This document shows, piece by piece, positions 9,785 to 38,389 of a stretch of DNA of 64,000 bases; within the stretch, counting starts at the first letter, position 1; the number at the start of each line of letters is the position of its first letter. The stretch is from an uncultured virus (IMG/VR IMGVR_UViG_3300028835_002692) (lineage: Duplodnaviria; Heunggongvirae; Uroviricota; Caudoviricetes). The stretch lies in the IMG/VR virus record IMGVR_UViG_3300028835_002692; one strand, written 5' to 3'. The notes below the pieces were generated by a model. It saw only the letters and a program-made list of their open reading frames with translations. It was not told the DNA's origin and ran no database searches. The position numbers and the translations under genes were made by a program.

Positions 9785-10131
9785 TGTGCTGCACCCTCCT
9801 TTTTGGCTTCTTCATCTGCCAGCTGCTTATGCAGGGTGAAGGCCAGATTATACACATAGCAGAAGAGGGAAGCGAATGTGTTGTCTCGCAGATAGCCCCG
9901 GTCGTGAAGGTAGACCTGGAACTGGGAGACCCTCACCACCTCTTCGTCAGAGAGCTTTACTGCCTTGACCTTGCTCACCTCCTCCCGCTTCATTCGGAGA
10001 GGGACAATGACCTCGTTCTCATCCAGAGAGACCAACTGCTGAATGAGCCGCGGGTCTATGTCCTCAACTCCCTGCTGGCTGATCCCTTCGCCTTGAGTTG
10101 GCTCGACCACACTTCCTCGCTCCGTTACCAT
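9781..10131 (-). CDS. hypothetical protein
   Basis: Coupled to the dxs stop and to the next gene. Confidence 0.65.
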   Translation of the reverse strand: MVTERGSVVEPTQGEGISQQGVEDIDPRLIQQLVSLDENEVIVPLRMKREEVSKVKAVKLSDEEVVRVSQFQVYLHDRGYLRDNTFASLFCYVYNLAFTLHKQLADEEAKKEGAAQ

Positions 10132-12041
10132 CAGTCACCTCCTGTGATAATTTTCAGTACCCGCTGCGCTATTCCATGCGCATCAAGGCCGAATTTTTCA
10201 AGCAGCTCGGGTATCTCACCGTGGTCAGGGAATATGTCTCCTACCGCTATCGAGAACACCCGGAGCATATCGTCCCTGGGAGTCCGCCGTCTTCCCTTAG
10301 CCTCGGATATGGCTTCCTGCAGAGCCGATGCTGCCCCGCCTACCGACGTGCCCTCCTCTATGACCCAGACCATAGAGAAGCTATCGAGCAATTCCTCGAC
10401 CAGGGCGTAATCTATGGGTTTGATGTACCTCAGGTTTACTACCTGGGGCTTCAGGCCATATCCCTCCAGCTCCTTGCCGGCATCAAGGGCAGCATAGACC
10501 GCCTCGCCGACGGCTGCCAGGCAGACCATCTCGCCATCACGCATGACTTCGGCGGTACCGTAGAGGACCGGCTTCATCTCCTCATCCAGGGGTACACCCC
10601 GAACCTCTCCTCTGGGGTACCGGATAGCCCACGCCTTGCTGGCGTGAAGCGCTGTCCAGAGCAGGTGGCGCATCTCATTCTCGTCTTTGGGCACGGCCAC
10701 AGTCATGTTGGGCGCTATTCTCATGTAAGCCAGGTCATAGAGGCCATGATGAGTTTTACCATCCTGCCCGACAACCCCCGCGCGGTCTAAAGCGAATACG
10801 ACGTGCAGCTCGTTTAAGCAGACGTCGTGCATAATCTGGTCAAACGCCCTCTGGAGGAAGGTAGAATAGATACAGACTACCGGCATCAGCCCGGCCCGGG
10901 CCATACCGGCGGCCATTGAAACGGCATGCTGCTCACATATCCCGACATCAAAAACCCTATCGGGATATACCTCCTGGACGGCAACGAGGCCCGTCCCTTC
11001 CAGCATGGCAGCACTTATGGCTACGATCCGCTGGTCCTGAGCCATTAGCTGAAGAAGGGCCTGGGAGAATACCTGAGAGTAGGTAGGGCCGGCCGCCCCT
11101 ATCTTGGCTGGCCCGGGCTGGTGGTAGCGGGTCGGGTCTTCAGCGGCCGGAGCCCAGCCCTGGCCTTTATTGGTAAGCACATGGACAAAGGGAACCTTGT
11201 CGGAGTACTGCCTTGCCCGGTCGATCATCTCGATGAGCTCCTTGAGGTTATGGCCATCAACCGGACCAAGGTAGTTAAAGCCCATCTCGTCCCAGAAATG
11301 GCCTATCTCTGGGATGAGGGTCTTTTGAATAGCGGACTTTATCCCCTTTCCCAGACTGAGAGCCAGAGGGCCCAGCGGTACCTTGGGCGCCAGAGCTTCG
11401 GTTATGCTCTCAAACTGCTGGAAGTCTTTGTCCAGCTCAAGCTCTGCCCGGAGGTGGGGCAACCACTGGCCACGCCACTTCGCCAGCCAGCCCACGTTCT
11501 GACTGATAGCCATGCCGTTATCATTCAATATGACCATCAGGTTCCGTGGGTTCTGGGCGATGATATTCGATAGCCCCTCATAAGCCAGGCCGGAGGTAAG
11601 GCTCCCATCGCCGATGACGGAGACGAAGCATCCCTTATCCCCCTTCATCCTGGCACCAAGGGCTAGCCCCAGGGCTATAGACGGAGCGCATCCGGCATGC
11701 CCAAGTGCCAGAACGTCATGCTCGGATTCCGAAGGCTCGAAGTAGCCTGAGTAGCCCTGGCTGGTCCTGATCTTCTCAAATCCCTTCGCCCTGCCGGTGA
11801 GGATTTTGTGAGCGTAGGACTGGTGGCTGACATCAAATATTATCCGATCCGTGGGAGAGTCGAATAGGCGATGCAGGGCTATGGTTAGCTCGACAACGCC
11901 GAGATTAGAGGCCATGTGTCCACCGTTACGGCTCACCGTGTCTATGATGAGCTGGCGGATCTCCCCGGCCAGGGTAGATAGTTCCTGCAGGGACAGCCGC
12001 TTCAGGTCAGCTGGGGCTTCTATCGTCTCCAGTAAGCTCAA
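10131..12041 (-). CDS. dxs: 1-deoxy-D-xylulose-5-phosphate synthase
   Basis: GGHMASNLGVVELTIALH, FDVSHQSYAHKILTGR, GDG..NDN TPP motif, YSTFLQRAFDQ, IRYPRG; probable TTG start at 12041 with AAGGAG (ORF track starts at 12113). Confidence 0.93.
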   Translation of the reverse strand: MSLLETIEAPADLKRLSLQELSTLAGEIRQLIIDTVSRNGGHMASNLGVVELTIALHRLFDSPTDRIIFDVSHQSYAHKILTGRAKGFEKIRTSQGYSGYFEPSESEHDVLALGHAGCAPSIALGLALGARMKGDKGCFVSVIGDGSLTSGLAYEGLSNIIAQNPRNLMVILNDNGMAISQNVGWLAKWRGQWLPHLRAELELDKDFQQFESITEALAPKVPLGPLALSLGKGIKSAIQKTLIPEIGHFWDEMGFNYLGPVDGHNLKELIEMIDRARQYSDKVPFVHVLTNKGQGWAPAAEDPTRYHQPGPAKIGAAGPTYSQVFSQALLQLMAQDQRIVAISAAMLEGTGLVAVQEVYPDRVFDVGICEQHAVSMAAGMARAGLMPVVCIYSTFLQRAFDQIMHDVCLNELHVVFALDRAGVVGQDGKTHHGLYDLAYMRIAPNMTVAVPKDENEMRHLLWTALHASKAWAIRYPRGEVRGVPLDEEMKPVLYGTAEVMRDGEMVCLAAVGEAVYAALDAGKELEGYGLKPQVVNLRYIKPIDYALVEELLDSFSMVWVIEEGTSVGGAASALQEAISEAKGRRRTPRDDMLRVFSIAVGDIFPDHGEIPELLEKFGLDAHGIAQRVLKIITGGD

Positions 12042-12439
12042 TGCAGACTCCTTATCGGTATTCCGCTTATCCTCCTGAGCGCTTTCCTGAACCGCTCCGA
12101 GTCTACTATCCACTGGTCACCCCGATAGCGGATAGCTCTCGCAGCGTACTTCTGGGCGAATACGTCATCGCCTCTGCCCTGCAGGGCACCCTCTACCAGG
12201 TCTAGGAAGGTGTCTTCGCTCATCTCAACCTGGCCGGTGTACTCCAGTTTCTCCCCGGTGGTATAGAACTTACCATCCCGAATGGCGTAGATCCGCGTGA
12301 CGCTGTCTTCTCCATAGACAGTCCACTTACCCACCCAGCCATCGGCCTCTTTCCAGTCCTCATCATCGGCGACCTCGGCGAGTTGGTTCATCAGGAAATC
12401 TACGAGTTTACCTATTTTAGAACTTTCTCCAGAAGCCAT
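12038..12439 (-). CDS. SCP2-like (sterol/lipid carrier fold) protein
   Basis: Size and pattern: YAIRDGK, VEMSEDTFLDLVEG, IRYRGD. Confidence 0.5.
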   Translation of the reverse strand: MASGESSKIGKLVDFLMNQLAEVADDEDWKEADGWVGKWTVYGEDSVTRIYAIRDGKFYTTGEKLEYTGQVEMSEDTFLDLVEGALQGRGDDVFAQKYAARAIRYRGDQWIVDSERFRKALRRISGIPIRSLH

Positions 12440-13215
12440 CTGGTCACGCCTCCTTTTTCTTTCTCTAAGGTAATCGGCCTTGCCCGGAGAATCATCTCCG
12501 TTACATGGAGAATTTCGCGCTGCCTCTCGGCTTGTCCAGCGAAGGGGATATGCCCCAAGAACGGTACCCTGAACCGCCTAGCGAGTTCCTGTATGTTGAC
12601 CGGGTCAAGGTCAAAGGGGTTGGAAACTTGGCCGCAGTGGGGGCAGCGGTACCCGGCCATATTCGCCACAATACCGCAGATCGGGGTCCCGGTTTCCCTG
12701 AGCATGTTCAGGGTCTTGGTTATGCCGAGAACAGAGAGGTCGTTGGGCTGGCAGACGATAACGGCGCCATAGATATTCTGGAGACTGGGCGGCATATCCC
12801 GTCCGTTCCCTATCAGAGATTGGATTTCATCACCGGAGGTCGGAGGGGTGTCGACTACAACCCAGTCAAGGTCTTCGTCCCAGGCTATAGAGGTCTGGGC
12901 TATCTGCTTGACAGCCTCCCGCTTCATCTCTCCATCCCACATATTCGGGGTGTCTTCTGGGAAGAGAAGCCCTATCGAGAAGACCTGAAAGCCATCGTGG
13001 TAGACTGGACGGAGCTTGCCTCCCAGAAGAGGATCGTAGCCTGGTTCTTTCTCAAGATGCAGAGCCCGGGGCATTGATGAGGCATGAATATCTATGTCCA
13101 GAAGCCCCACCTTTTTCCCGAGGGTTCTCAGTGCTGATGCCACCCCCAGGCAGATGGTCGTTTTACCGGTACCGCCCTTCAGGGAAAGAATGGGTAGCTT
13201 CTTAGGCTCACTCAT
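12412..13215 (-). CDS. Mrp/NBP35/ApbC-family P-loop ATPase
   Basis: KGGTGKTT, DIDIH, VDTPP, ANMAGYRCPHCG. Confidence 0.88.
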   Translation of the reverse strand: MSEPKKLPILSLKGGTGKTTICLGVASALRTLGKKVGLLDIDIHASSMPRALHLEKEPGYDPLLGGKLRPVYHDGFQVFSIGLLFPEDTPNMWDGEMKREAVKQIAQTSIAWDEDLDWVVVDTPPTSGDEIQSLIGNGRDMPPSLQNIYGAVIVCQPNDLSVLGITKTLNMLRETGTPICGIVANMAGYRCPHCGQVSNPFDLDPVNIQELARRFRVPFLGHIPFAGQAERQREILHVTEMILRARPITLEKEKGGVTRWLLEKVLK

Positions 13216-13508
13216 TGGCCACACCTCCAGCTATAATCGTACCCTCTCGGGCGCTCTGGGATGCAGTCGATGAATCCTTCTCCCTGCTTGAGCTTATGGG
13301 ATAAGCTACAGTCACAGCACTCGAGCAGGAATCCGATGTTAATATCGAAGTAAATCCGATTCTGCTCCGCCCTGTCCTTTCTTATCTCCCAGCCCAGGCT
13401 GTTACCGACCCTTTTTCTAGCCAGGGCGAGCAGGATTATAAGGGAGGTGAGTAACCTATAGAGCCAAGGTTTCAAGGCTTTACCCCCAAAAAGAAAAGAC
13501 GACCACAC
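13212..13508 (-). CDS. small membrane/Cys protein (start uncertain, probably near 13475)
   Basis: TM stretch, CCDCSLSH. Confidence 0.5.
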   Translation of the reverse strand: MWSSFLFGGKALKPWLYRLLTSLIILLALARKRVGNSLGWEIRKDRAEQNRIYFDINIGFLLECCDCSLSHKLKQGEGFIDCIPERPRGYDYSWRCGQ

Positions 13509-15113: not shown

Positions 15114-16274
15114 GTGCTAAACCCCTACTTGGAAAAACGACTCTACTCACTCCCTGTCCAGCCTGTCCTCGTGGAGATTGACCCCAACCAGTTTCTCGCT
15201 ACCCTGGGGCAGATCACCGGTCTCCAACTCAAAGTAGTCTCCGAGCTACCCACCTTCGGCTTCGCAGCCGTCGCCCCGGTAAGCCCCGGAATCATCAAGA
15301 AGATCAACTCGCTACCTGGCGTCCGCATGGTTCACGCCAACCAGGTCGTCAACATCTTCCAGATACCTGCCCCGGCTGACGAGTGGTTTCCCACTTCCGA
15401 GAGCCGGAACATGCTTGAGGCGGAGCAAGCTGTCAGGGAGGGCTACAACGGCGAAGCCATCAAAGTCGGGGTCACGGATACCGGGGTCGATGCCTCTCAT
15501 CCCCAGCTCCAGGGCACGGAATTCTACTCTCGAATCATGTGGCCCTTCCGAGAGGTGCTGGACGAGAACGGGCACGGCAGCCATGTCTGCTCAACCGTAG
15601 CCGGCAAGCTCTACAACACCCCGCTGGGAATTACCGTAGAAGGGGTCTCACGGTCACCTATGGTGTCTGTGAAGTGCCTCGGCCGAGGCATTGGGACGGG
15701 ATTCACCAGCGAGATTATCGAGGCCATGTCCACCTGCTACGAGAAGGGTGCCCAGATAATATCAATGAGCCTTGGTTCCGCAGAGTGCCAGGGCGGGTGT
15801 GATGTCTGCCCGCAGTGTCGGATGGTATCTTCCCTAACGGCCAGAGGTATTATCTTCGTCATCGCTGCCGGCAACTCGGGACCCCAAGAGAACACCATAG
15901 GCTGCCCGGGTTGCTCTCCTGATGCTCTCACCGTAGCCGCTGTAGACAGGAATGGAGAGTTGGCGTCTTTCTCCAGCCGCGGTGGGGACAAATTCCCGCT
16001 AAAGCCCGATGTGGCCGCTCCCGGGGTCAACATCTACTCAGGAACAGCGAGAGCCTCTATCATTGACGTTCAGGAGGCTGATGCTGGTGTTGGCTTCGCT
16101 GCCATCAGCGGTACCTCCATGGCTACGCCCCACGTTTCGGGATTTGCAGCTCTCCTCAAGCATAAATTCCCGACAATCACCACCGCCCAGATCAAGCAGA
16201 CCATGGCGCAGCGGGGACACGCCAAGGACTTTAAGACCGGCTGGGGTATTCCACTTTGGTCTTACTTCAAGTAG
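15114..16274 (+). CDS. S8 subtilisin-like serine protease without signal peptide
   Basis: Catalytic DTG, HGSH and GTSMATPHV; AAGNSG. Confidence 0.92.
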   Translation: MLNPYLEKRLYSLPVQPVLVEIDPNQFLATLGQITGLQLKVVSELPTFGFAAVAPVSPGIIKKINSLPGVRMVHANQVVNIFQIPAPADEWFPTSESRNMLEAEQAVREGYNGEAIKVGVTDTGVDASHPQLQGTEFYSRIMWPFREVLDENGHGSHVCSTVAGKLYNTPLGITVEGVSRSPMVSVKCLGRGIGTGFTSEIIEAMSTCYEKGAQIISMSLGSAECQGGCDVCPQCRMVSSLTARGIIFVIAAGNSGPQENTIGCPGCSPDALTVAAVDRNGELASFSSRGGDKFPLKPDVAAPGVNIYSGTARASIIDVQEADAGVGFAAISGTSMATPHVSGFAALLKHKFPTITTAQIKQTMAQRGHAKDFKTGWGIPLWSYFK

Positions 16275-16329
16275 CTCTCTTGACAACGTCCATATCCAGG
16301 GAATAAACTATCAACTTAGGAGGAAATCC

Positions 16330-16671
16330 ATGGCAGAGAAAGCCAGGAAAGGTCTCCAGGCCCTGCTCGATGTAAGGCGGTTTCTTCCGACTCCTACCGA
16401 CCTGCTCCGACCATTCCCGCCTCCGCAGAAAGGGGAGCTGGTCATGCAGGGTGTGACCGCCGATGTGGTCAGCTATGGCCTCGGTTTCATCCCCTACGTG
16501 GGCGATATACTGGGCGACGCCATTGAGGACAATATCATGGCTGACGTTGTACAGAAGCTATCCCCAGCCGAGCTGTTAGAGTTCAGAGAGCAGAATAGAG
16601 TCTATCCCAATGGCGTTGCTCTACTCAGAACCTTTCAGCGGGCTAAAGTGGCACCGGGAAGCAGGCCGTAA
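16330..16671 (+). CDS. hypothetical protein
   Basis: ATG after GGAGG; upstream TTGACA at 16280. Confidence 0.6.
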   Translation: MAEKARKGLQALLDVRRFLPTPTDLLRPFPPPQKGELVMQGVTADVVSYGLGFIPYVGDILGDAIEDNIMADVVQKLSPAELLEFREQNRVYPNGVALLRTFQRAKVAPGSRP

Positions 16672-16973
16672 TGGTCACCGAAAGACAACCACCAGGCGCT
16701 GGCCCGGGTCTGGGGAAAATGGCCGAGCAGCTCCTTGGCTGGCCCTCACCAGAGAGAATTCTGGCCGAGCTACAGAGGCTCAACAATAACCTTGAGCTCT
16801 ACCAGCCCGATATCCAACGGCTGTCCAGGGCTATGGAGGGGTTGTCCGCCAATGACCTCAGAAACCTTGCCGCAGCCTTGAACGGGGTGAAAGTCGGAGA
16901 CTTGCTCAGGATCATGAATGAGTTTACCCATCTGGGAAGCCAGATTTATGAAAGACTATGGGGCAAGAGGTAG
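16671..16973 (+). CDS. hypothetical helical protein
   Basis: Translationally coupled. Confidence 0.65.
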   Translation: MVTERQPPGAGPGLGKMAEQLLGWPSPERILAELQRLNNNLELYQPDIQRLSRAMEGLSANDLRNLAAALNGVKVGDLLRIMNEFTHLGSQIYERLWGKR

Positions 16974-17212
16974 CAAACTACACCATGGAGGCCCGGAGGG
17001 AGAGAGTACTTCAGGCTCTCCATATACTGATAGGTGAAAGAGCGCCCTTGATTAACGAGGATGAAAGGGCTATAATCAATGAATACCGGGATCTCTGTAC
17101 CTTCGGTTATGGTAGGATGGAGGTCGTGGTTGTAGCCCACCGTATGGAAGGAATCAACCCGACCAAGCATAAGAAACGGAAAGATTTGATAATTTCCCCG
17201 CTAACCACTTGA
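16958..17212 (+). CDS. small hypothetical protein
   Basis: Operon context. Confidence 0.55.
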   Translation: MGQEVANYTMEARRERVLQALHILIGERAPLINEDERAIINEYRDLCTFGYGRMEVVVVAHRMEGINPTKHKKRKDLIISPLTT

Positions 17213-17238
17213 CAAATCCACAAAAGCGGTTCTATATT
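17209..17238 (+). promoter_or_regulatory. sigma70-type promoter of the structural operon
   Basis: TTGACA-18-TATATT. Confidence 0.6.
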
Positions 17239-17269
17239 ATTAAGGGATAACTCGCCGGCGAGAGAAATC

Positions 17270-17307
17270 GAGGCGGGTCACCTTATGGTGGCTCGCCTTT
17301 TTCTTTT
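17270..17307 (+). promoter_or_regulatory. leader terminator/attenuator, related copy
   Basis: GAGGCGGGTCACC-TTAT-GGTGGCTCGCC-TTTTTCTTTT between promoter and first gene. Confidence 0.65.
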
Positions 17308-17340
17308 ATCGCCAAATCTGCGAGAAAGGAGGAACCTCAG

Positions 17341-17673
17341 ATGGCCAACGTATTGGGGAAAATCCCGACACCCCTGGAGGCCGTCGACACGGTGGCAGAC
17401 ATGGCAAACCAGGTCGCCCGGGCTCCATTTCGGGTGGCCGGCAACGCCCTGACTGCGGCCGGTCAGGCAGCCAAGAACATCGAGAGTGACATCGCCAAGC
17501 CAGCGGATTACGCCGAAATCCCGCCTCCTCCTGATGTGCTGATAGGCTCCGTCATCTCCGGTGTTAGCCACGCGGTTGAGGGAGCTCTCAACACGGTCAA
17601 GGGTGCCGTCGACGGAGTGGTCGAGACGGGCGACGGCTTAAAGCGAGAGATTAACCAAATCGTGGGGAGGTAA
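17341..17673 (+). CDS. Ala/Val-rich putative virion protein
   Basis: Strong RBS; amphipathic helices. Confidence 0.65.
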   Translation: MANVLGKIPTPLEAVDTVADMANQVARAPFRVAGNALTAAGQAAKNIESDIAKPADYAEIPPPPDVLIGSVISGVSHAVEGALNTVKGAVDGVVETGDGLKREINQIVGR

Positions 17674-17708
17674 TGAGACCCCACACATTGTAGGGAGGTA
17701 ATGGCGTT

Positions 17709-18125
17709 ATGCCACCACAACTAGTCAATCCGTTTACCGCTCCTCTGACCATGCTGAAGCAGGTCGGGGAGCAGACCAGTGCTGCCATCGCCAGTGTGGG
17801 GACTGGAATGACTCAGGCAGCTAGCCAGGGCCTTGATGCGCTTATCCTCGGTGTGCCCGGGCTGCCCGGGGTACCCGGAGTTGCAGCTCGCCCTGGTATC
17901 CCGACCCCACAACAGTTGATGCCTGCCAACCTGCAGCAGGCTCTCGGGCAGGTGGAAAACCTGCTCATCCCGCCCGGGCTGCCCAGACCTTCCCAGGTTT
18001 TCCAAGTGCAGCCCCCACCGGCCCCAGCGCCGGCAGCGCCGCCAGCACCACCTACTCAAGGGGCTGAAGCAGTCCCGCCCGCCATGGCGCAGCGGAGACG
18101 AGTAGCTGAAAGGAGGGGCCTCTAA
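17709..18125 (+). CDS. Pro/Gln-rich putative virion protein
   Basis: Directly upstream of the candidate capsid gene. Confidence 0.6.
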   Translation: MPPQLVNPFTAPLTMLKQVGEQTSAAIASVGTGMTQAASQGLDALILGVPGLPGVPGVAARPGIPTPQQLMPANLQQALGQVENLLIPPGLPRPSQVFQVQPPPAPAPAAPPAPPTQGAEAVPPAMAQRRRVAERRGL

Positions 18126-18922
18126 TGGCACAAGAGAGAAAAGTTCGCCAAGTCATGACCGATGCCGGCCTCTATAAGGAAGGCACCAAGGAGACGCTCC
18201 GCACGGACTACATCGCCGAAGAGGACGTCACCATCGCCGGGAAGAGCTACACTCTTTCCAAGATCTCCTTCCTCGATGCCAAGATCTTCACCGATGAGCT
18301 GGACACCATCCTGATTCAGCAAAACCCGCTTATCCACGGAATCTACGCCAAGAACGCCGTGACCCTCTTCGACGCTGTCCGCATGGTCAACGTCAACTCC
18401 AAACAGGGATTCAAGGGCGCCCTGGCCAGCGGTAATGAGCTGGACTTCACCCTCATGATGGCCCGCCAGTTCCAGGACCCCGATGTGGCCAAGGTAGCAA
18501 ATGGTCCCCGCCGTCCACATTGGGTAAGAACCATCACCGCCGCCATGGTCACCGCTCTCAGCACCTCGTACTTCGAGGACAGAGCCGCTGCTGCGCGTGC
18601 TGTGCCCCCCGGTGAGCAGACCATGGGCGAGGAAGAGGGGATGGTGTGGACGGCCTTCTACAACCCGGCCCAAGTCCCATGTGTCGACGCCTTCCAGATC
18701 ACGATGAATACCGAACCCTTTGATATCCAGTCCCTGGACTTCGACCAGGTGCATCTCCAGACGGGTGACGTTATCATCGAATTCAAGGAGCCGTGGACTC
18801 TGCCACCCGAGCAGAGCGGCCTGATCAACGTCTCCTACTTCCAGCAAGGGACGGATGAGATGAGGCCACTGGGCATCTGGGTCAAGATGGCCAAGAACCT
18901 GAGAAACCTCACCGCACCGTAA
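18125..18922 (+). CDS. candidate major capsid protein (helical N-domain plus beta-rich jelly-roll-like C-domain)
   Basis: 265 aa; strongly C-ending codons suggest high expression; FKGALASGNELDF..MRPLGIWV recalls single-jelly-roll MCPs (from memory, unverified). Confidence 0.5.
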   Translation: MAQERKVRQVMTDAGLYKEGTKETLRTDYIAEEDVTIAGKSYTLSKISFLDAKIFTDELDTILIQQNPLIHGIYAKNAVTLFDAVRMVNVNSKQGFKGALASGNELDFTLMMARQFQDPDVAKVANGPRRPHWVRTITAAMVTALSTSYFEDRAAAARAVPPGEQTMGEEEGMVWTAFYNPAQVPCVDAFQITMNTEPFDIQSLDFDQVHLQTGDVIIEFKEPWTLPPEQSGLINVSYFQQGTDEMRPLGIWVKMAKNLRNLTAP

Positions 18923-19031
18923 CGAGTGGTGAACCTACCGCCGGCTGTCGGAAGGTGACGCCCCCGCGCTGCTGGTTTTCCAGCGTGAGTCGAGGTGGGG
19001 AAACAGCCAAATTTAATCTCGGAGGAAGACC

Positions 19032-19877
19032 GTGAGAAAGCAACTCTTATACGCCCGGAGGCTACACGGGGACATTGGTCCCCTCAATACCGACCCAGTA
19101 ACAAACCTGCCCGGCCGCATTATAGCACCAGCCGTTTCTATCGACGGCGTCTACCAGGACTACGACGAGGCAAGCGACACCCAGCACTACACCATCGGCT
19201 CCCGTATGCAAGTGGATGACAGGGTGTACCACTACGGTAGCGCCGGTGCTGTCCTCAATCCTGGCTACGGGGCGAAGCAAGTCCTCCCCCAGCACGTTGC
19301 CTTTGCCGCCCTTCCCACTGCTCTTACTCTAGCGGGCTCTTACACCATTATCGTAACCGTGGGAGGCGGCGATGGTGTCCTCGGCGATGGCGTAATCGGT
19401 GAGGATGAGTTGGCCGGGGGCTATATTGTCATCTTTATGCCTGGTAACAACGCTATCAACCGCCGGGTAGTTCACAATACCGAAGTTGACGGCCCTAACC
19501 CGATGACGGTGACGATGGACAGACCTCTCCCCGTTGATGTGGCGAACACCGAGCACGCCGAACTGATGGCCAGCCCTTACCTGCTTGTTCAGACCGGCAA
19601 CTTCCCAGTGGCGTCGGTTATGGGGATGCCACAACAGATTGCAACCCTCGGCCAGTTTATCTGGCTCCAGACCTGGGGGCCGACCTGGGTAGTGCCAGGA
19701 GGGGCCTGGATTGGAAACGACAATAGATGGGCCGTGTTCCTTGGGAATGGCTCAATCCAGGAGTATACGTGGGGTGATGGCCTGGTGCAACGAGCCCAGC
19801 TAGCAGGTTTTATCCTGTGCAATGGGCAAGCTGGCGCTGCGGGGGCGCCCTTCCTCCAGCTCATGCTAGCTCCATAG
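19032..19877 (+). CDS. Gly-rich beta-structured virion/cement-like protein
   Basis: DRVYHY..GQFIWLQTWGP pattern seen in viral structural proteins. Confidence 0.55.
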   Translation: MRKQLLYARRLHGDIGPLNTDPVTNLPGRIIAPAVSIDGVYQDYDEASDTQHYTIGSRMQVDDRVYHYGSAGAVLNPGYGAKQVLPQHVAFAALPTALTLAGSYTIIVTVGGGDGVLGDGVIGEDELAGGYIVIFMPGNNAINRRVVHNTEVDGPNPMTVTMDRPLPVDVANTEHAELMASPYLLVQTGNFPVASVMGMPQQIATLGQFIWLQTWGPTWVVPGGAWIGNDNRWAVFLGNGSIQEYTWGDGLVQRAQLAGFILCNGQAGAAGAPFLQLMLAP

Positions 19878-19902
19878 GGAGACCATTATCCATGGAAGGA
19901 GT

Positions 19903-20127
19903 ATGAATATGAACCTGAAGGGAAAGAGAGCTGCTGAGATAGAAGAAACCGTCAAGCGCCGCAGGGAATACCTTGCCGGCAACGCACCACCAGGTATGGG
20001 CACTCAGCCAACCGAGCCACCAGAGCCAGTCGAGCCAACAGAGCCAGTCGAGCCAACCGAACCCGTTGAGCCCACGGAGCCAGCCGAGCCCACGGAGCCA
20101 GTCGAGCCAACAGAGCCAACCGAATAG
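19903..20127 (+). CDS. small protein with (PTEPVE)n repeats
   Basis: Tandem 18-bp coding repeats at about 20008-20123. Confidence 0.6.
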   Translation: MNMNLKGKRAAEIEETVKRRREYLAGNAPPGMGTQPTEPPEPVEPTEPVEPTEPVEPTEPAEPTEPVEPTEPTE

Positions 20128-20188
20128 CTGACCCAATAGAATAAAACATTGCTCTCTCTGGAGAGGAGAGAGGCAAAGGAGGTGAGCG

Positions 20189-20845
20189 ATGTTAGAGCTC
20201 CAACCGAAACCGCAGTTTTCGGTGGTTATCCCGCCGAAGCTGCTGCAGGAAGGGTATCTGGTCACATTCTCGAGTGACTGGCCCTCCACCCATGTCGCTA
20301 TCCGTGAGAAGACCTTCCGTATCGATGCGGTCAACCAGGTTCCCTATGACCTGTCCTACATCCTCCCGGAAGGGACCGTCTTGGGCACTGCGCCTGGCAC
20401 CATCTATCGTGACGTCGACTTGTCCAACGGTACAGGCACCTTCAATGAGAGCATCTACCCGGAGAATCAGAACTCGCTCTTCGAGGTGCTGGTCGGGTTC
20501 AAGCCCGGTAATTTCATCTCACACTGGTATATCCCGGCGGGTAAGACTGTCCACAACCTGGAGTATGCTCAGATGTATCCCGACCTGACCAATACGAAGC
20601 GGCAGTACCTGGGTGCCCGTCAGCCGAAGGACAGCCCCTACGAAGACCCACGCATCAAGCTCTACCTCGTCAAGGACCTGGCCCCCCTGATCATGAGGCT
20701 GTATGTCCTTCCCGGTGTGCTATGGGAGAAGATTGTCGTAGGTCTAACGATCAACAAGTGCCACATGAGGGAACTTGAAGCGCCGACCGACGAGCAGTTG
20801 CTCAAGGCAAAAGTCATCAGATATTACGACTATCTGAGGTGGTAA
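20189..20845 (+). CDS. candidate second capsid/penton-type beta protein
   Basis: Beta-rich, C-ending codons, structural operon. Confidence 0.45.
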   Translation: MLELQPKPQFSVVIPPKLLQEGYLVTFSSDWPSTHVAIREKTFRIDAVNQVPYDLSYILPEGTVLGTAPGTIYRDVDLSNGTGTFNESIYPENQNSLFEVLVGFKPGNFISHWYIPAGKTVHNLEYAQMYPDLTNTKRQYLGARQPKDSPYEDPRIKLYLVKDLAPLIMRLYVLPGVLWEKIVVGLTINKCHMRELEAPTDEQLLKAKVIRYYDYLRW

Positions 20846-20855
20846 GGAGATAGAA

Positions 20856-21200
20856 ATGCCAAGTGTAGTTATCGATGGAGTACTTATGGCCGCCCAGACT
20901 GTAGCTGCTGAGAGAGAGAACGCCGTCGTCCAGGCCAAGTCCCTTACGATTGACAACCAGGTAGGCGCTGGTGACTGTGAAATCGCTATTCAGGATAGCT
21001 TCGCCGAATCGGCCTACTATAACAACACCACCCTCACCGCGCGTGTGGTTAATCGATTCAAGGCCACTGTCCAGGCAGGTGATATAATCACCTGGGGAGA
21101 AGAGGACCTCAAGGGAGTGAAGTGCCTGGGTGCCATGCTGGTCGACTCCGACGTGGACAAAGCGGCCTGCCTCGTCACGGTGGGCTATGAACACGAGTAA
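20856..21200 (+). CDS. small beta-rich putative structural protein
   Basis: RBS; operon context. Confidence 0.6.
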   Translation: MPSVVIDGVLMAAQTVAAERENAVVQAKSLTIDNQVGAGDCEIAIQDSFAESAYYNNTTLTARVVNRFKATVQAGDIITWGEEDLKGVKCLGAMLVDSDVDKAACLVTVGYEHE

Positions 21201-21214
21201 AGGAGATCTGACCT

Positions 21215-21751
21215 ATGGTAATGGAAGCAACGGGTACCATCCAGCAGCTGGTACCGGGGGTAGAGCAGATTGTTGATGGTGAGCCTCAGCTGCCATCCCG
21301 CCCCAGCTCTCCTCTGGTAGAAATAGAACAGCCTGAGAAGCGCGAGTCTCCTATGCCGGTGGCGCCAAGGCCACCTCTGCCGTCTACCGAGCAGATAGCA
21401 GAGCAGCAGGCTTACCAGCAGCTATACGGCGGGCCGGTCCTGAAACTTAACCGCTACTCTGGCACCGATCAGGATTGGGTTGAGTTGGTGCGCTGGGATA
21501 TCCCCATAGGCTACACCGGTGACCTGCACGAGATTTCCTTTGTCTCCTCTAACGACGTAAAGACCAGGTACCGGATTTTCCTGGTCAACGTTGACCAGCG
21601 TATCCCGACGGACCGCCAGACCATAACGCCGCAAACCTTCAAATGGGACCGCACCGTGCTGCCTGGTGGGTATGCGGTATGGGTTGAAGTCAGGTCAACG
21701 GATGGTACCTCTATTACCGTGGACGGCTCGATCACAGGCACAGTGAGGTAA
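21215..21751 (+). CDS. putative structural protein
   Basis: Pro-rich N-terminus, beta-sandwich-like C-terminus. Confidence 0.6.
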   Translation: MVMEATGTIQQLVPGVEQIVDGEPQLPSRPSSPLVEIEQPEKRESPMPVAPRPPLPSTEQIAEQQAYQQLYGGPVLKLNRYSGTDQDWVELVRWDIPIGYTGDLHEISFVSSNDVKTRYRIFLVNVDQRIPTDRQTITPQTFKWDRTVLPGGYAVWVEVRSTDGTSITVDGSITGTVR

Positions 21752-21766
21752 AGGAGAGCTGGAGAG

Positions 21767-24037
21767 ATGGCTGTAAACGTACCTGGCTTTAGCCTTTCTA
21801 TACTGAGGCAGCAGACTTCCGTAAGGGCGGGATTGCCCCTGCTCATGAGCGGAAGGTTCACCGCCTTTGGGCTAGGTGTGCCTGCCTATATCCGTGTCTT
21901 CCTTGAGGGCCCGACTTATGATCCCCAGATCCGCTCCTTCGATACCTTCGCCTCTCCCTTTTCCGGGGACTACTCCGTGAACGTCATCGCCGAGAAGGAT
22001 GGCCAGTACAACGTCTACGCCCAGGCTTCCCCGCCACCGATTGTGCCGACTGGTCCTCCTTTCCCGGAGGCCATACTCCTTTTACCGCCTATGGCTGAGT
22101 CAACCAGGCCGCCGCTGGTAGTCGGAAGATCCTTCAACGGGGGCGTTGAGGCTCTACTGCCGGACGGTACGAGGGCGCGTTTAGAAGCACCGCCCATGCA
22201 GCCTATTGAGTTCAGGCCGCTTATTACCGTTGGAGCTCCCGGGGTAACCATTACCATGCCTGGGGTAGCTGCACCGCCAAGAGCCGCTATTCCGTTCTTC
22301 CCTGCCGTCCCAGGAGCACCAGAAGTGCCAGGCCCGCCTGTGGCTCCGGCCCGAGCTGCCATCGACGATGTCCGATTCATCCCTCCAGCGATTAACCCTG
22401 GGCAGGAAGCCACTGGCGTGATGACCTGGAGGAATACCGGGGATGCTCCCACCTTATTCGATACCGTCTTTTACCTGGTCGCACCCACTGGTGAGCGATA
22501 TGGCCCACTTCAGGTCAACCAAGATATATCAGCCCACCCGCAGGTGCCCAACACCCTGAATATACGCCTCGGCACACAGGGGATGCCATCCGGTTTCTAC
22601 TCGGTAACCGCTGAGGTCTATGACTCGGCGACCGGGGCCCTGGTAGCTGCTCGGACGCTTTCAGCTCGTCTGCAAATCAGTGAAATCGTAGCTCCTCCCG
22701 TACCAGTGCCGCCGCCACCTGCTCCACCGGCGCTACCACCTGCTCTCCCAGCTCCCCCAGCGCCACCAGCACCGCCGGCACTACCCTCTGCGCAGATGCT
22801 GGGGCAACCGGTTCTTAACCTACCTCGCCAGCTAACGGTCGGAGAGGTGTGGTCAGGCTCCATTTCACTGCCGACCTTCGGGCCTGCCCCCTATTTCCTT
22901 ACCACCCGCCTACTGCTTGAAGACCCTCAAGGCTATGAAATACCGGTGGCAGAGGTAGCTCGGACAATTCAGCCCAGCGAAACCATCCAGATACCCGTCA
23001 ACTTGAACACTTCAGGGTACACCCCAGGTGACTACACCATAATCCTGGGGGTTCTGGACCAGATGGGTACAATGATTCATCAATTCGCTTTAGGACTGCT
23101 TTCCTTGCTTGCAGCAATCCCTATACCCGAAGTTCTCACCGCCGATATATTTGAAACACCACAGCTGAGTGCCCCCAGCCAGGTGACGTTGGGAGATATC
23201 TGGTCAGGTAATATCAGTATCCCCACTATCGCCCCACCTGGCGTGCCACCTGCCCCACCTGGCGTGCCACCTGCCCCACCTGGCGTGCCACCTGCTGCAA
23301 CCCCTATCGGTATCAGCCTGCAACTGGAGGACCCACGTGGAACTCGCTGGTGGGTTTCATCTCTGTCCAAAACCTTTACCCCGGGCCAGCCGCTTTCCTA
23401 CCCGATAAACTTCAACACCGGGCAGGACTATGATGGATACGGCCTGTCTCCCGGATGGCACAATATTCTCTTGACCATATCCGATGCCACAGGTAATATT
23501 ATTCTAGAGCAGATTGTCGGCCCACTTAACCTATTGCCTCTTCCAGAGATACCGGCACCGCCAGCACCCCCACCGGCACCGCCGCCACCTGCTCCGCCGG
23601 CACCACCGCCGATACCGGCACCGCCGCCACCTGCTCCGCCTGTGCCACCGCCCCCAGAACCGGAACCGCCGCCACCTGAGGTGGCTCCGTTCGTAAACTC
23701 AGTGACTACCCGCGGCTTCTACTCCGGGGTGGTTTGGGGTGACCGTTGGACAGGTGAAATCTATATCGGCATCACATCTTCAAGTGAAAACCTCCTTACC
23801 GCTGCCCTCTTCCTTGAGAGGCAGGGGAGGCTCTGGTATGTTGCCTCTACTCAAGAGTGGGTACCGCCCAATGGTACCCTCCCCTTGATGATAGACTTCC
23901 ATACCGGGCAGGCTGTTAACGGGGAACTCCTTGAGACAGGAACCTATAACGTCCTTCTGGACGTCCGTGATGCCCAAAGAAATATTATATATAGTCAGGT
24001 CATCAGAACACTAGATATCTACCTACCGGAGCTCTAA
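21767..24037 (+). CDS. large Pro-rich protein with repeated Ig-like domains (spike/adhesin candidate)
   Basis: 3-4 repeats of GxxWSG.I...PGxYxI domains joined by poly-Pro linkers; 21-bp tandem repeat at 23231-23293. Confidence 0.7.
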   Translation: MAVNVPGFSLSILRQQTSVRAGLPLLMSGRFTAFGLGVPAYIRVFLEGPTYDPQIRSFDTFASPFSGDYSVNVIAEKDGQYNVYAQASPPPIVPTGPPFPEAILLLPPMAESTRPPLVVGRSFNGGVEALLPDGTRARLEAPPMQPIEFRPLITVGAPGVTITMPGVAAPPRAAIPFFPAVPGAPEVPGPPVAPARAAIDDVRFIPPAINPGQEATGVMTWRNTGDAPTLFDTVFYLVAPTGERYGPLQVNQDISAHPQVPNTLNIRLGTQGMPSGFYSVTAEVYDSATGALVAARTLSARLQISEIVAPPVPVPPPPAPPALPPALPAPPAPPAPPALPSAQMLGQPVLNLPRQLTVGEVWSGSISLPTFGPAPYFLTTRLLLEDPQGYEIPVAEVARTIQPSETIQIPVNLNTSGYTPGDYTIILGVLDQMGTMIHQFALGLLSLLAAIPIPEVLTADIFETPQLSAPSQVTLGDIWSGNISIPTIAPPGVPPAPPGVPPAPPGVPPAATPIGISLQLEDPRGTRWWVSSLSKTFTPGQPLSYPINFNTGQDYDGYGLSPGWHNILLTISDATGNIILEQIVGPLNLLPLPEIPAPPAPPPAPPPPAPPAPPPIPAPPPPAPPVPPPPEPEPPPPEVAPFVNSVTTRGFYSGVVWGDRWTGEIYIGITSSSENLLTAALFLERQGRLWYVASTQEWVPPNGTLPLMIDFHTGQAVNGELLETGTYNVLLDVRDAQRNIIYSQVIRTLDIYLPEL

Positions 24038-24038
24038 T

Positions 24039-24512
24039 ATGGAAGCATTGGCCAGTATTGTAGGTGCCATCTCAGGGTGCATTTCTCTGCTCGGGATAGT
24101 CTACTTCTTCGCAGTGTGGCGAGGAAAGGTTGACACCGATCTAAACTCATTTAAGCAGAGTATTAAGAACTACCCGCCGGCCGAGATGTGGACCATGGTC
24201 AAGACCCTGTGGGAAGTCTACGTATTGGAGGCCCTTCGCCTCCGTCCCGACCTGGCCAGTCAAGGCAGCAGCTATAAGCTCAAGAAAGAAGCCGAAGACC
24301 TGATCCCCGACCAGCTCAAGAAGGCTTTAGATAACATCCCGCTAAACCCCGCCGCTAACACCAACCAGATAGCCTCCGGCTGGCTGGTGGTCAAGCACCT
24401 CGGACTGGAGCAGATTCAGGATATGGCCGGAGAGAAAGGGCTCAACGTTCAAGAGGCTATCGCCATCCTGTCCACCTATCTTGAGGAGCGGCGGGAGAGA
24501 ATCGGCCGGTAA
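24039..24512 (+). CDS. N-terminally membrane-anchored protein
   Basis: N-terminal TM segment. Confidence 0.65.
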   Translation: MEALASIVGAISGCISLLGIVYFFAVWRGKVDTDLNSFKQSIKNYPPAEMWTMVKTLWEVYVLEALRLRPDLASQGSSYKLKKEAEDLIPDQLKKALDNIPLNPAANTNQIASGWLVVKHLGLEQIQDMAGEKGLNVQEAIAILSTYLEERRERIGR

Positions 24513-33656: not shown

Positions 33657-34366
33657 ATGATAATGAAGGCTCCGGCAAAGATCAACCTTTCCTTTGAGAT
33701 TCTCGGTAAGCGAGAGGACGGGTATCACGAGATACGAACCGTGATGCAGACCGTTGACCTCTGCGACTACCTTACCATAGAGAAGAGTAAGCAGTTCTTT
33801 CTCACAGGAATCCAGGTGGCTCCACCCGAGGAGACCACTATCTACAAGGCAGTTAAGGTTCTAATGCCGCGGCGGTCCTCTACGCCATCAACGAGCTTTA
33901 TGAGCTGAAGCTCTCCAAAGAAGAGCTGATGGGTCTGGGGGCCAGCGTAGGCGCTGATGTTCCCTTCTTCATCATCGGCGGTAAGTGCCTTTGCGAGGGA
34001 TTTGGGGAGAAGGTGACCCGACTCCCTCCCGATGAAGGTAACTTCTACTACATTATCTTTCGGCCACATAAGCGGATCGCAACCAGGCAAGCCTATATGG
34101 ACTACGACAGAGTAGGGCAGAGTTTTGCCGAGGCCGCTAGGGTCAAATGTCCCCAACTCGATGATGTGTTTTCTTTCTTCCCGGATGCCGTAGTCTCGGG
34201 AAAGGGCCCCTCTACCTGGGTCAAGCGGGAATACTTCGATGCCGAGTTTGAAGGTGAGCCCGTTCATGCCATAGCCGGCGGGTTGGATACCTTTCTATCT
34301 GGGATAAAGACCATGACCCGTACCTGGGATGGGGATATCTATATAGTTCGCCCTGTGGGAAGATGA
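33657..34366 (+). pseudogene. ispE: 4-diphosphocytidyl-2C-methyl-D-erythritol kinase, disrupted
   Basis: [23 protein letters not shown] in one frame and SNAAAVL..GADVPFF..GEK in another; Gly-rich ATP loop absent at the join (~33858). Confidence 0.85.
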
Positions 34367-35195: not shown

Positions 35196-35291
35196 AGAGC
35201 CTGGGAAAGAGGGCAGCACCTCCCGATGAGCAGCTCGGCCGCCGCCTTGTTGCTCACCCAGGCTCGTTTTACTAAGGCGAAGGAGGCTAAT

Positions 35292-35759
35292 ATGGGATTC
35301 GGAGGAGCAAGCGCAGCAACCATAAGAACCATTGTCGAGGAGGAAGTGGCCGACATCCAGGCACAGACCGACAAGCTGGCCGGTGAAGCGCCGTCATCGA
35401 GCTCTGTGACCGCGAACTGGCAGTCAGGAACCGCCCCCTCCACAGAAACTGGGGCGGAGCTGGTTCGCATCGGGACCGCCGGCGACCGCAAGAAGCTACA
35501 TTCCCTGATGGTAGGGATAGGAGCCCTTACCAATGGCGCCGTCATCACCATCAGGCTCTACAGGTCCATCAACGGCGTCGAAACCAAGGTCTATCCGCCT
35601 TCAGGAACCACCTGGACGGTGGACACTGACCCGGATGGGATATGGGTTGTCGATGGTACCCTGGAGATAACTGGTGTCCTGAGGGTCGAGGTGCAGAGCG
35701 ACACCCCCGCGGATAACACCCTTCCCATCACCTACGAGTACGACCTCGAAGATATGTAA
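35292..35759 (+). CDS. putative structural beta protein
   Basis: AAGGAGG RBS; beta-rich. Confidence 0.6.
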   Translation: MGFGGASAATIRTIVEEEVADIQAQTDKLAGEAPSSSSVTANWQSGTAPSTETGAELVRIGTAGDRKKLHSLMVGIGALTNGAVITIRLYRSINGVETKVYPPSGTTWTVDTDPDGIWVVDGTLEITGVLRVEVQSDTPADNTLPITYEYDLEDM

Positions 35760-35772
35760 AGAGGAGGCATCC

Positions 35773-36261
35773 ATGAGTGTGCTGGTTAAAGGAGTAAGCA
35801 CCTTCCTGGCACTTAGCGATACGCCGAGCAGTTATACAGACGAGGCCAAGAAGCGGGCACTAGTTAACGCTGGGGAAAGTGCCCTGGAGCTAGCCACGGA
35901 AGAGGCTAGCCTTGAATTCATTATTGATGGTGGGGGCGGGGTTATCGCCGCCAGCGAACAGGGTCACCTGGAAGTACCATTTGACTGTGAGATCCAGTCA
36001 GTCGAGCTGCTGGCTGATCAGACGGGCGCCATCAAGGTGGATATCTGGGTGGATACCTATGCCAACTTTCCTCCTACCGACGCTGACTCTATCACCGGCG
36101 GCAACGAACCCGAGATCACCGCCGGCAACCAGAAGTACCAGGATACCACGCTCACCGGCTGGACCAAGAGCTTGACCAAGGGACGGATTATGGCCTTCAA
36201 TGTGGACTCCGTTACGACCATTACCCGGGTAACTGTCACCCTGAAGGTGAATAAGACATAG
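35773..36261 (+). CDS. putative structural (fiber/spike-associated) protein
   Basis: FLALSDTPSSY motif; beta-rich C-domain. Confidence 0.6.
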   Translation: MSVLVKGVSTFLALSDTPSSYTDEAKKRALVNAGESALELATEEASLEFIIDGGGGVIAASEQGHLEVPFDCEIQSVELLADQTGAIKVDIWVDTYANFPPTDADSITGGNEPEITAGNQKYQDTTLTGWTKSLTKGRIMAFNVDSVTTITRVTVTLKVNKT

Positions 36262-36270
36262 GAGACAACT

Positions 36271-37395: not shown

Positions 37396-37433
37396 GAAAG
37401 GGGTGGAGAGGCACCCCTATTGACATTTTGATA

Positions 37434-37455
37434 GCGTATAATTAGTATTATACGC
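37434..37455. repeat. 22-bp palindromic site GCGTATAA-TTAGTA-TTATACGC overlapping a promoter -10
   Basis: TTGACA at 37420, TAGTAT 17 bp later. Confidence 0.95.
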
Positions 37456-37466
37456 AGAGGTGCAAA

Positions 37467-38370: not shown

Positions 38371-38389
38371 CAGGAGCGGGAGGACCTCA

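What the first reader, a model, noticed from the sequence alone, without database searches (positions are those of the whole stretch)
17209..24512. Putative tailless, jelly-roll-type virion module in a large bacterial element
Seen: a promoter-led operon of small beta-rich and Pro-rich proteins, with no terminase, portal, HK97 capsid or tape-measure gene recognisable in 64 kb. Inference from remembered patterns, unverified: 18125-18922 resembles single-jelly-roll MCPs of portoglobovirus-like membrane-containing archaeal viruses, and 20189-20845 a second capsid protein. Such a virus with a genome over 64 kb in a Chloroflexota-like host would be unusual.
Basis: inference. Interest (0 to 1): 0.72.

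Follow-up and report, generated by a model that had tools for sequence, protein, structure and literature searches.

The report
Large tailless jelly-roll bacterial virus family
This operon sits on a complete 76-kb DNA circle with no detectable tailed-phage genes and encodes two predicted jelly-roll proteins, likely the shell of an undescribed family of tailless viruses that probably infect Dehalococcoidia bacteria and carry their own lipid-making genes.

Summary

The core order (amphipathic, Pro-rich, capsid, variable, second jelly roll, small beta protein) recurs in two more closed circles of 69-70 kb and a 45-kb record. All four carry an Mrp-type ATPase and a UbiA-like gene. Their lipid genes differ: isoprenoid here, polyketide synthase or reductase in the others. 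The protease next to the operon differs too.

Best reading (0.75): a new family of large tailless viruses built like portogloboviruses but not members of that family. The host is probably Dehalococcoidia (bins and IspH relatives; no spacer found). Virions and membrane are inferred, not shown. Earlier scan notes held no such finding on other DNA.

The parts
10131..12113 (-). DXS, first enzyme of the MEP isoprenoid pathway; part of the divergent lipid operon
   Evidence: Pfam DXP_synthase_N E 8e-92; beside the module in 6 of 80 related loci, most too short to reach it
12038..12439 (-). small protein, possibly an SCP2-like lipid carrier (weak)
   Evidence: no SCP2 match itself; its positional counterpart in G402 hits SCP2 at E 5e-4, just under cut-off; profile alignment over 95 columns, E 0.009, probability 4%
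12412..13224 (-). Mrp/NBP35-type P-loop ATPase; the one ATPase family shared by all large records examined
   Evidence: Pfam PF10609 E 7e-51; KGGxGKT and CxxC motifs; also in G402, G403, G725:C9 and G725:C12
13944..15038 (-). polyprenyl (GGPP-type) diphosphate synthase
   Evidence: Pfam E 4.5e-49; DDIQD motif; in 22 of 80 loci
15114..16274 (+). S8 subtilase; candidate maturation protease (role inferred)
   Evidence: Pfam E 3e-52; catalytic motifs present; in 34 of 80 loci; distant relatives have an unrelated His-Gly/Cys protein in a similar place upstream of the capsid operon
16330..17212 (+). three small conserved ORFs (16330-16671, 16671-16973, 16958-17212) behind a promoter-like site at 16280-16309; candidate minor virion or regulatory proteins
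   Evidence: in 37, 39 and 43 of 80 loci; the first has a homolog in G402, E 3e-16; site
17209..17238 (+). sigma-70-type promoter
   Evidence: 11 of 12 consensus matches
17246..17334 (+). conserved structured leader: long hairpin plus U-run, closed by a long-range stem ending at the ribosome-binding site
   Evidence: 23 leaders folded: 21 pairs, 3 with two-sided changes; terminator-like site 17270-17299; no Rfam match
17341..17673 (+). 110-aa protein with a long amphipathic helix and no transmembrane segment; candidate membrane-binding sub-capsomer protein
   Evidence: helical moment 0.54, reached by 0 of 200 shuffles; 4 of 5 distant positional counterparts score 0-2 of 200, the fifth 25 of 200; mean identity 83%
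17709..18125 (+). Pro-rich 138-aa protein with a basic C-terminus; candidate linker or cement protein
   Evidence: in 59 of 80 loci; Pro-rich ORFs sit in the same place in distant relatives, but homology to them is not shown
18125..18922 (+). predicted major capsid protein: N-terminal helical region plus C-terminal single jelly roll
18933..19013 (+). conserved structured RNA motif between the capsid gene and the next gene
   Evidence: 57 pattern matches, 46 distinct; 17 pairs, 5 with two-sided changes; no Rfam match
19032..19877 (+). variable 281-aa protein; candidate decoration or receptor-binding protein
   Evidence: mean identity 37% against 72% and 80% for the flanking jelly-roll genes in the same 19 loci; replaced by other genes in L080 and G403
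19903..20127 (+). 74-aa ORF with acidic Pro-Thr-Glu repeats
   Evidence: no relatives found with low-complexity masking on
20189..20845 (+). second predicted single jelly roll: penton or second capsid protein
20856..21200 (+). 114-aa core protein, probably beta-rich; candidate vertex protein (fold not predicted)
   Evidence: homologs follow the second jelly roll in L067, L080, G402 and G403 and G725:C9; nearest Atlas clusters are 90-100% viral and unnamed
21215..21751 (+). 178-aa conserved protein, Pro-rich N-terminal half
   Evidence: in 23 of 80 loci; mean identity 72%
21767..24037 (+). 756-aa protein with Pro-linked repeated segments; candidate spike or surface protein
   Evidence: homolog in L080, E 6e-33; the large ORFs at that site in relatives have weak Ig-like and InlB-repeat hits
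24039..24512 (+). 157-aa protein with an N-terminal transmembrane segment
   Evidence: highest hydropathy window of the module, 2.22; homologs in G403 and G725:C9
30368..31123 (+). UbiA-like membrane protein (weak match, degenerate motif)
   Evidence: Pfam E 1e-3, below cut-off; no Asp-rich motif by my pattern
33657..34366 (+). IspE kinase, split over two frames in this assembly
   Evidence: NCBIfam ispE on both pieces; change of frame
35226..41019 (+). second block of fibre- or adhesin-like genes; candidate receptor-binding appendages
   Evidence: PHROG 'virion structural protein' E 4e-17 at 35773; unknown-function PHROGs at 38680
44020..45272 (+). tyrosine integrase (44020-44952) followed by tRNA-Met (45197-45272)

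Best explanation
The operon is likely the particle-building module of a new family of tailless viruses with circular 70-76-kb DNA genomes, whose probable hosts are Dehalococcoidia bacteria. Shown: closed circular genomes; no detectable head-tail or FtsK/HerA-type packaging genes; a conserved gene order; bacterial promoters and MEP-pathway genes. Predicted: two single-jelly-roll folds. Inferred mechanism: 18125 forms the capsomers of an icosahedral shell. 20189 and 20856 form the vertex (20189 may instead be a second lattice protein). The amphipathic 17341 and Pro-rich 17709 proteins sit between the shell and an internal lipid layer. The neighbouring protease matures the particle, and variable genes (19032, 21767, the 35-47-kb block) supply spikes. 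With no terminase-type motor, shell and membrane would assemble around the circular genome, as proposed for SPV1. The linked lipid genes (DXS, IspE, IspH, GGPP synthase and a UbiA-like gene here; type III PKS, reductase and UbiA in G403, G725:C9 and L080) would supply or alter lipid for that membrane. This last step is the weakest (about 0.35).
For: Closure: 144-bp repeat and a junction-spanning contig. G403 has direct terminal repeats, CheckV 100%. G725:C9 is 70,465 bp with a 127-bp repeat.

No head-tail or FtsK/HerA-type genes: ORF scans; six-frame, 0 of 3 records, controls ring.

Conserved core: 18125, 20189 and 20856 occur in the same order down to about 20-25% identity. The variable gene between them drifts. 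Nearest Atlas clusters are 56-100% viral. The element has replication-initiator, recombination and integrase genes.

Lipid link: Mrp plus UbiA-like genes in 4 of 4 large records with the full core (G000, G402, G403, G725:C9). About 105 close IspH homologs (43-87%) lie above a drop to 40% or less; several share contig lengths with capsid-gene contigs.

Host: the only hit in a scan of 185,579 species genomes is a Dehalococcoidales bin. Eight of 363 Dehalococcoidales genomes hold module genes: six the capsid family, two the upstream genes. The one organism-named IspH in the ten clusters looked up is from a Dehalococcoidia bin. 52 of 61 genomes of that order have IspG, which the virus lacks.

Against: CheckV calls G000 68% complete. 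The few taxonomically labelled members of the Atlas clusters are mostly Uroviricota. Many large ORFs remain unannotated, so a divergent motor could hide among them.

Host contigs are short or wholly viral pieces inside bins, and none was seen joined to host genes. G725 holds several unrelated capsid-family contigs, which suggests loose binning. One homolog sits in a Sulfuricaulis bin. A narrower profile found only 1 of 401 Dehalococcoidia genomes. No equally sensitive search was run in other taxa.

The UbiA-like gene of G000 is weak and not shown to be related to those of the relatives. IspE is split. G402 as held has no intact PKS gene. No small basic nucleocapsid protein like SPV1 VP1 was identified.
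Confidence: 0.75

Rival explanations
1. Same virus, but built like helvetiaviruses (realm Singelaviria): 18125 and 20189 are two major capsid proteins that pair up, 20856 is the penton, and an unrecognised ATPase (possibly the Mrp-type one) pumps DNA into a preformed shell.
For: 20189 is more conserved than 18125 (80% against 72%), as a lattice protein might be. Three core genes fit MCP + MCP + penton. HCIV-1 6h9c_D (VP7 by the chain labels in PMC6414509) is among the matches of 18125. The Mrp ATPase is conserved in all large records.
Against: The two proteins share no profile similarity (probability 0.1%), and their genes are separated by a variable gene. No DUF87, FtsK, A32 or Zot match. The HHIV-2 chain matched by 20189 starts at residue 39, which fits the penton described as lacking its first 40 residues (inference). 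The Mrp protein keeps its CxxC motif, typical of Fe-S carriers (recalled).
Confidence: 0.2
2. Not a virion. A plasmid-like element builds a jelly-roll protein compartment or surface fibre, for instance housing its isoprenoid enzymes.
For: The best NCBIfam match of the prenyl synthase is the family 2 encapsulin cargo model (238 bits, below the 450 cut-off). Ena fibres and the spore protein ExsFA are among the best fold matches. The element also carries surface-protein-like genes at 3168-6597.
Against: The core persists when the isoprenoid enzymes are replaced by PKS genes. No conjugation or relaxase family was hit, so there is no other evident means of spread. Fibre-like genes and mostly viral Atlas neighbours.
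Confidence: 0.1
3. A tailed phage or helper-dependent satellite whose head genes are too divergent, missing from the assembly or borrowed; the jelly rolls are tail or decoration proteins.
For: CheckV 68%; Atlas labels mostly Uroviricota; tail-like PHROG hits at 3168, 35773 and 45369; the viral fold library returns tail-fibre and collagen-tip domains.
Against: Three closed circles lack the hallmark families. The jelly-roll genes are among the most conserved genes, unlike fibre tips. 70-76 kb is far larger than known satellites (recalled).
Confidence: 0.07
4. An enveloped, non-icosahedral budding virus in which the jelly rolls form an outer coat or spikes.
For: No lysin or holin family hit; lipid genes; budding-type viruses (IME1) are proposed for Dehalococcoidia (bioRxiv 10.64898/2026.09.15.751708).
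Against: Only one module protein has a clear transmembrane segment; neither jelly roll has one. No Zot/pI ATPase.
Confidence: 0.08

Closest known systems
Portogloboviridae (Sulfolobus polyhedral virus 1, SPV1)
   Same: Circular dsDNA; two unrelated single-jelly-roll capsid proteins (VP4 hexamers, VP10 pentamers); no packaging ATPase; presumed non-lytic (PMC8459092 whole text; PMC8812541 passages). An SPV1 chain is the top fold match of 18125.
   Different: Genome 70-76 kb against 20 kb; bacterial signals and probable Dehalococcoidia host against Saccharolobus; own replication genes, integrase, protease and lipid-synthesis genes, whereas SPV1 takes lipids from the host pool; 18125 has about 70-100 extra N-terminal residues; no sequence similarity detected.
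Helvetiavirae / realm Singelaviria (Sphaerolipoviridae, Simuloviridae, Matsushitaviridae; HCIV-1, HHIV-2, P23-77)
   Different: No FtsK-HerA packaging ATPase detected; the two jelly rolls are not detectably paralogous; genomes 2-4 times larger (16-19 kb and about 30 kb in the ICTV abstracts seen in listings).
IME1 viruses of Dehalococcoides (bioRxiv 10.64898/2026.09.15.751708)
   Same: Circular or integrated elements of Dehalococcoidia without tailed-phage hallmarks; tyrosine recombinase; CARDB surface proteins (seen in relatives G402 and G725:C9); proposed non-lytic release.
   Different: IME1 are 21-28 kb, have a pI/Zot ATPase and small transmembrane capsid candidates, and are proposed to be filamentous. 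This family has predicted jelly rolls and no Zot. Parts 1-3 of 5 read; supplements closed.
Family 2 encapsulin operons with polyprenyl transferase cargo
   Same: A shell-like gene near a prenyl diphosphate synthase whose best NCBIfam model is the encapsulin cargo enzyme.
   Different: Encapsulin shells have the HK97 fold (PMC13669383 abstract in listing); here the shell candidate is a jelly roll on a mobile circle, and the score is below cut-off.

Membership tests
Portogloboviridae | circular dsDNA genome | tested here: met
   terminal repeat and junction-spanning contig; circular permutation of a linear genome not excluded
Portogloboviridae | genome about 20 kb | tested here: not met
   75,997 bp; relatives 69,475 and 70,465 bp
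Portogloboviridae | VP4-type single-jelly-roll major capsid protein | tested here: inconclusive
Portogloboviridae | second single-jelly-roll protein forming pentons | tested here: inconclusive
   20189 is a predicted jelly roll; its oligomer is unknown
Portogloboviridae | no packaging ATPase | tested here: met
   no terminase, DUF87 or Zot six-frame match and no FtsK/A32 Pfam hit; an unrecognised motor is not excluded
Portogloboviridae | host in Sulfolobales | tested here: not met
   sigma-70 promoter, MEP genes, RpoA-CTD, GerE, DnaD; Dehalococcoidales bins
Portogloboviridae | no recognisable replication initiation proteins | tested here: not met
   DnaD-like, DnaC-like, sliding-clamp-like and MCM-like genes
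Portogloboviridae | internal lipid layer and nucleoprotein core | not testable with these tools
   only indirect: amphipathic 17341; no VP1-like protein identified
Helvetiavirae (Singelaviria) | two related single-jelly-roll major capsid proteins forming heterodimers | tested here: inconclusive
   two predicted jelly rolls, but no profile similarity between them; pairing unknown
Helvetiavirae (Singelaviria) | FtsK-HerA superfamily packaging ATPase | tested here: not met
   PF01935 0 of 3 records, control 14 of 14; no FtsK or A32 hit among ORFs; profile-level test only
Helvetiavirae (Singelaviria) | internal membrane | not testable with these tools
   needs particles
Caudoviricetes | large terminase | tested here: not met
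   PF03237 0 of 3, control 5 of 14; no PHROG terminase among 118 ORFs
Caudoviricetes | portal protein | tested here: not met
   PF04860 0 of 3, control 4 of 14
Caudoviricetes | HK97-fold major capsid protein | tested here: not met
   PF05065 0 of 3, control 4 of 14; folds of other unannotated ORFs not predicted
IME1 (Dehalococcoidia) | pI/Zot-like ATPase | tested here: not met
   PF05707 0 of 3, control 4 of 14
IME1 (Dehalococcoidia) | 21-28-kb genome with a cluster of small transmembrane proteins | tested here: not met
   76 kb; one clearly transmembrane protein among 14 module ORFs scored

The most novel reading that the evidence does not exclude
A widespread sediment and subsurface virus lineage that extends the portoglobovirus design (vertical single jelly roll, inner membrane, no packaging motor) to bacteria and to genomes almost four times larger, and that makes its own virion lipid. 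Interchangeable isoprenoid or polyketide cassettes feed a UbiA enzyme, and a conserved Mrp-type ATPase with an SCP2-like carrier delivers the product to a membrane shaped by the amphipathic 17341 protein. It would link SPV1 with Singelaviria and be a bacterial virus that synthesises, rather than borrows, its membrane.
Probability: 0.25. Interest if true: 0.92.

Novelty: new variant of a known kind. Interest (0 to 1): 0.78.

Why it matters
Vertical single-jelly-roll viruses are known from a few small genomes in hot-spring and salt-loving hosts. SPV1, which lacks a packaging ATPase, is proposed as the ancestral state (PMC8812541). A diverse family of 70-76-kb circles with that layout in probable Dehalococcoidia would widen the host and size range greatly. 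It would also pose a testable question: how is 76 kb packed without a motor? At SPV1's packing density the core would be about 1.56 times wider, roughly a 130-nm particle (inference).

These records have no hallmark-gene matches in Pfam or PHROGs, so marker-based surveys cannot place them; the 18125 and 20189 profiles are ready markers. The recurring lipid cassettes next to the capsid genes suggest viral control of membrane chemistry, whether in the particle or in the host.

Tried and rejected
Complex prediction of 18125 with 20189: no verdict, score 0.00 against a mark of 0.32, controls not folded. It is used neither for nor against binding.

Sequencing runs: 19 listed, one holds more than half the words, and no RNA holder is listed.

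Sequence searches that found nothing: alignments A1, A3, A8 and A9 against PDB sequences; A3 members against PHROGs, 1 weak hit in 100; 18125 against 50,697 phage records; A1, A2 and A4 in IMG/VR contigs. P23-77 and SH1 chains were not among the 50 rows shown in either wide fold search, which does not exclude them. The second-look fold comparison never ran because the machine was busy. The SPV1 record was not in the annotated collections, so chain T was not assigned.

Host tests that failed: tRNA-Met as an attachment site reached at best 87% to Dehalococcoidia tRNAs. Three short DNA matches were checked as possible CRISPR spacers; none lies in a repeat array, and two fall in DnaC- and DUF5131-like genes. 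Matches to the Pro-rich stretch near 23550-23650 and to replication genes make up most of the 57 of 363 genomes and were not counted as module evidence. Bin G001 has no DXS or IspG match, but it is incomplete. L034 is identical to the window over 20,795 bp, so it is not independent.

Other negatives: profile alignments did not establish homology of 17709, 16671, 16958, 21215, 8459 or 9781 to their positional counterparts. The His-Gly/Cys protein has no Pfam match; calling it a clan CD-like protease rests on recalled motifs. The tree of 113 capsid homologs is a quick, unfinished search, used only to pick subgroups.

Literature: ten search slots, nine used; none showed a paper on this family. 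The library lacks most subscription papers, and bioRxiv supplements were closed.

Full report
1. The element. The window is bases 1-64,000 of G000, a 76,141-bp virus record. Its first and last 144 bases are identical, giving a 75,997-bp circle. In run X1 one 2,885-nt contig lies on 74,497-76,141 with its positions 1241-2885 and on 1-1384 with its positions 1-1384, without differences. The junction is therefore assembled through, although X1 may be the source sample. CheckV's estimate is 68%; I give it less weight than the closure because no close reference exists. I scanned 118 ORFs of the whole record against Pfam and PHROGs. They show replication and repair genes (DnaD-, DnaC-, clamp- and MCM-like, Ku, ligase), an integrase beside tRNA-Met, a ubiquitin-like E1/E2/JAB set, fibre-like genes and isoprenoid enzymes. 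They show no terminase, portal, HK97 capsid, tape measure, lysin or FtsK/HerA ATPase. Six-frame searches for five hallmark families were empty in G000, G402 and G403 and rang in controls.

2. The operon. The promoter and ORFs are as described. 18125-18922 has 126 homologs and 128 representatives at the 50% level; 20189-20845 has 173; none carries an informative name. A metagenome scan gave 104 relatives, of which 80 were kept. After dropping L034 (identical to the window) and adding L082, 80 loci were compared. The order DXS-12038-Mrp-GGPP synthase (minus strand), then S8-16330-16671-16958-17341-17709-18125-19032-20189-20856-21215-21767-24039, is kept in the long close relatives among the 34 loci printed, with a few insertions; more distant loci (L067, L069, L075, L080) keep only the core. 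In 19 loci holding all four genes, mean identity is 72% (18125), 37% (19032), 80% (20189) and 56% (20856).

4. Distant relatives. Subgroup alignments found G402 (44,925 bp, classed as provirus, with tRNA-Gln and integrase at one end) and G403 (69,475 bp, terminal repeats, CheckV 100%). G725:C9 (70,465 bp, 127-bp repeat) came from a Dehalococcoidales bin. With L080 they keep the order: amphipathic ORF, Pro-rich ORF, capsid gene, variable genes, second jelly roll, 20856-like. Pfam scans covered 105 ORFs of G403 plus 29 of L080, 61 of G402 and 96 of 97 of G725:C9; ORFs cut at fetch boundaries were missed. They found no head-tail or packaging family. Two swaps stand out. First, upstream of the operon G000's clade has a subtilase; the others have a 217-224-aa protein with invariant Gly-His-Gly and Cys, which I read from memory as clan CD-like. 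Second, G000's clade has DXS, IspE, IspH, GGPP synthase and a weak UbiA-like gene. G403, G725:C9 and L080 have a type III PKS, UbiA and an NAD-dependent reductase (G403 also an acyl carrier protein). G402 has UbiA and the reductase, but no intact PKS. An Mrp/NBP35-type ATPase is in G000, G402, G403, G725:C9 and in the still more distant G725:C12, which has the capsid homolog but no 20189 or 20856 match. Two unrelated routes to a hydrophobic product, both linked to the capsid genes, suggest selection for a lipid-related function. Whether the product goes into the particle, alters the host membrane or is a quinone-like metabolite is open.

5. Host. Bacterial by promoter and gene content. For Dehalococcoidia: 1 of 1 hits in the all-species scan; 8 of 363 genomes of the order hold module genes; the one organism-named IspH among ten clusters looked up is Dehalococcoidia; IspG is in 52 of 61 genomes of the order, so the partial viral pathway could be completed by such a host. 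Against: no contig joins module and host genes, binning may be loose (one search shows several capsid-family contigs in one bin), one homolog lies in a Sulfuricaulis bin, and no spacer was found. I put the host at about 0.75.

6. Mechanism. Shown: circle, gene content, synteny, amphipathic character of 17341 (0 of 200 shuffles). Predicted: two jelly rolls. Inferred: shell of 18125, vertices of 20189/20856, an inner membrane held by 17341 and 17709, protease maturation, co-assembly with the genome, release without a recognisable lysin. SPV1 provides the template: VP4 hexamers, VP10 pentamers, sub-capsomer proteins, inner lipid, no packaging ATPase (PMC8459092, whole text).

7. Comparison. It works like a portoglobovirus in layout but fails membership on size, host and replication genes. 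It lacks the packaging ATPase of Helvetiavirae, now in realm Singelaviria (PMC12451622 passages; PMC6414509 passages). It is not IME1 (bioRxiv 10.64898/2026.09.15.751708, parts 1-3 of 5). Nine literature searches showed no description of this family; other papers were seen as listings only. Unseen supplements and subscription papers may contain these contigs.

8. Verdict. Observation confirmed; interpretation largely right but structurally unproven. New variant of a known kind, at the level of a new family or higher; interest 0.78.

Noticed in passing
window 18933-19013 and 45 other distinct copies: Conserved structured RNA motif right after the capsid gene, with covarying pairs and no Rfam match; L066, L067, L076, L077 and L080 have a different conserved sequence at the same place.
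   Followed up: partly
window 17246-17334: Conserved leader with a terminator-like hairpin of variable length and alternative pairings next to the ribosome-binding site; possible attenuator controlling the capsid operon.
   Followed up: partly
L080, L075, G402, G403, G725:C9 (e.g. L085:7429-8202, L119:11351-14223): Many small or CARDB/Ig-type proteins share a short Gly-Pro-Pro-Leu-Pro...Trp motif: 15 matches in 735 ORFs of distant loci, some counted twice through overlapping loci; 0 in 75 G000 proteins and 0 in 1,988 ORFs of close loci. Possible particle-targeting tag, found in the clades with the His/Cys protein.
   Followed up: partly
G000 68779-69708 (L001:6779-7708): IspH with about 105 close homologs on environmental contigs, well separated from the rest; probably a virus-specific clade (no tree built).
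   Followed up: partly
window 62591-62920 and G000 63409-66991: Prokaryotic ubiquitin, E2, JAB and E1 (ThiF) cluster.
   Followed up: no
window 51322-55034: MoxR/CbbQ-type AAA+ ATPase and VWA protein pair; not seen in the relatives examined.
   Followed up: no
window 55621-57749: Ku and ATP-dependent ligase, an end-joining pair, on a circular element.
   Followed up: no
window 3168-6597: Two secreted surface-protein-like genes (a beta-helix protein; a protein with a C-terminal membrane anchor) that may alter the host surface.
   Followed up: no
window 33657-34366: IspE is split by a change of frame; assembly error or pseudogene not resolved.
   Followed up: partly
G725:C12 and G725:C31 (L125-L128): Much more distant capsid-family contigs with an Mrp ATPase (C12), lacking 20189 and 20856 matches; probably a separate lineage, host unknown.
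   Followed up: partly
   Followed up: no
window 45295-45351: A 56-nt non-coding stretch after tRNA-Met is 91% identical to a site in the related viral contig G001:C42.
   Followed up: no
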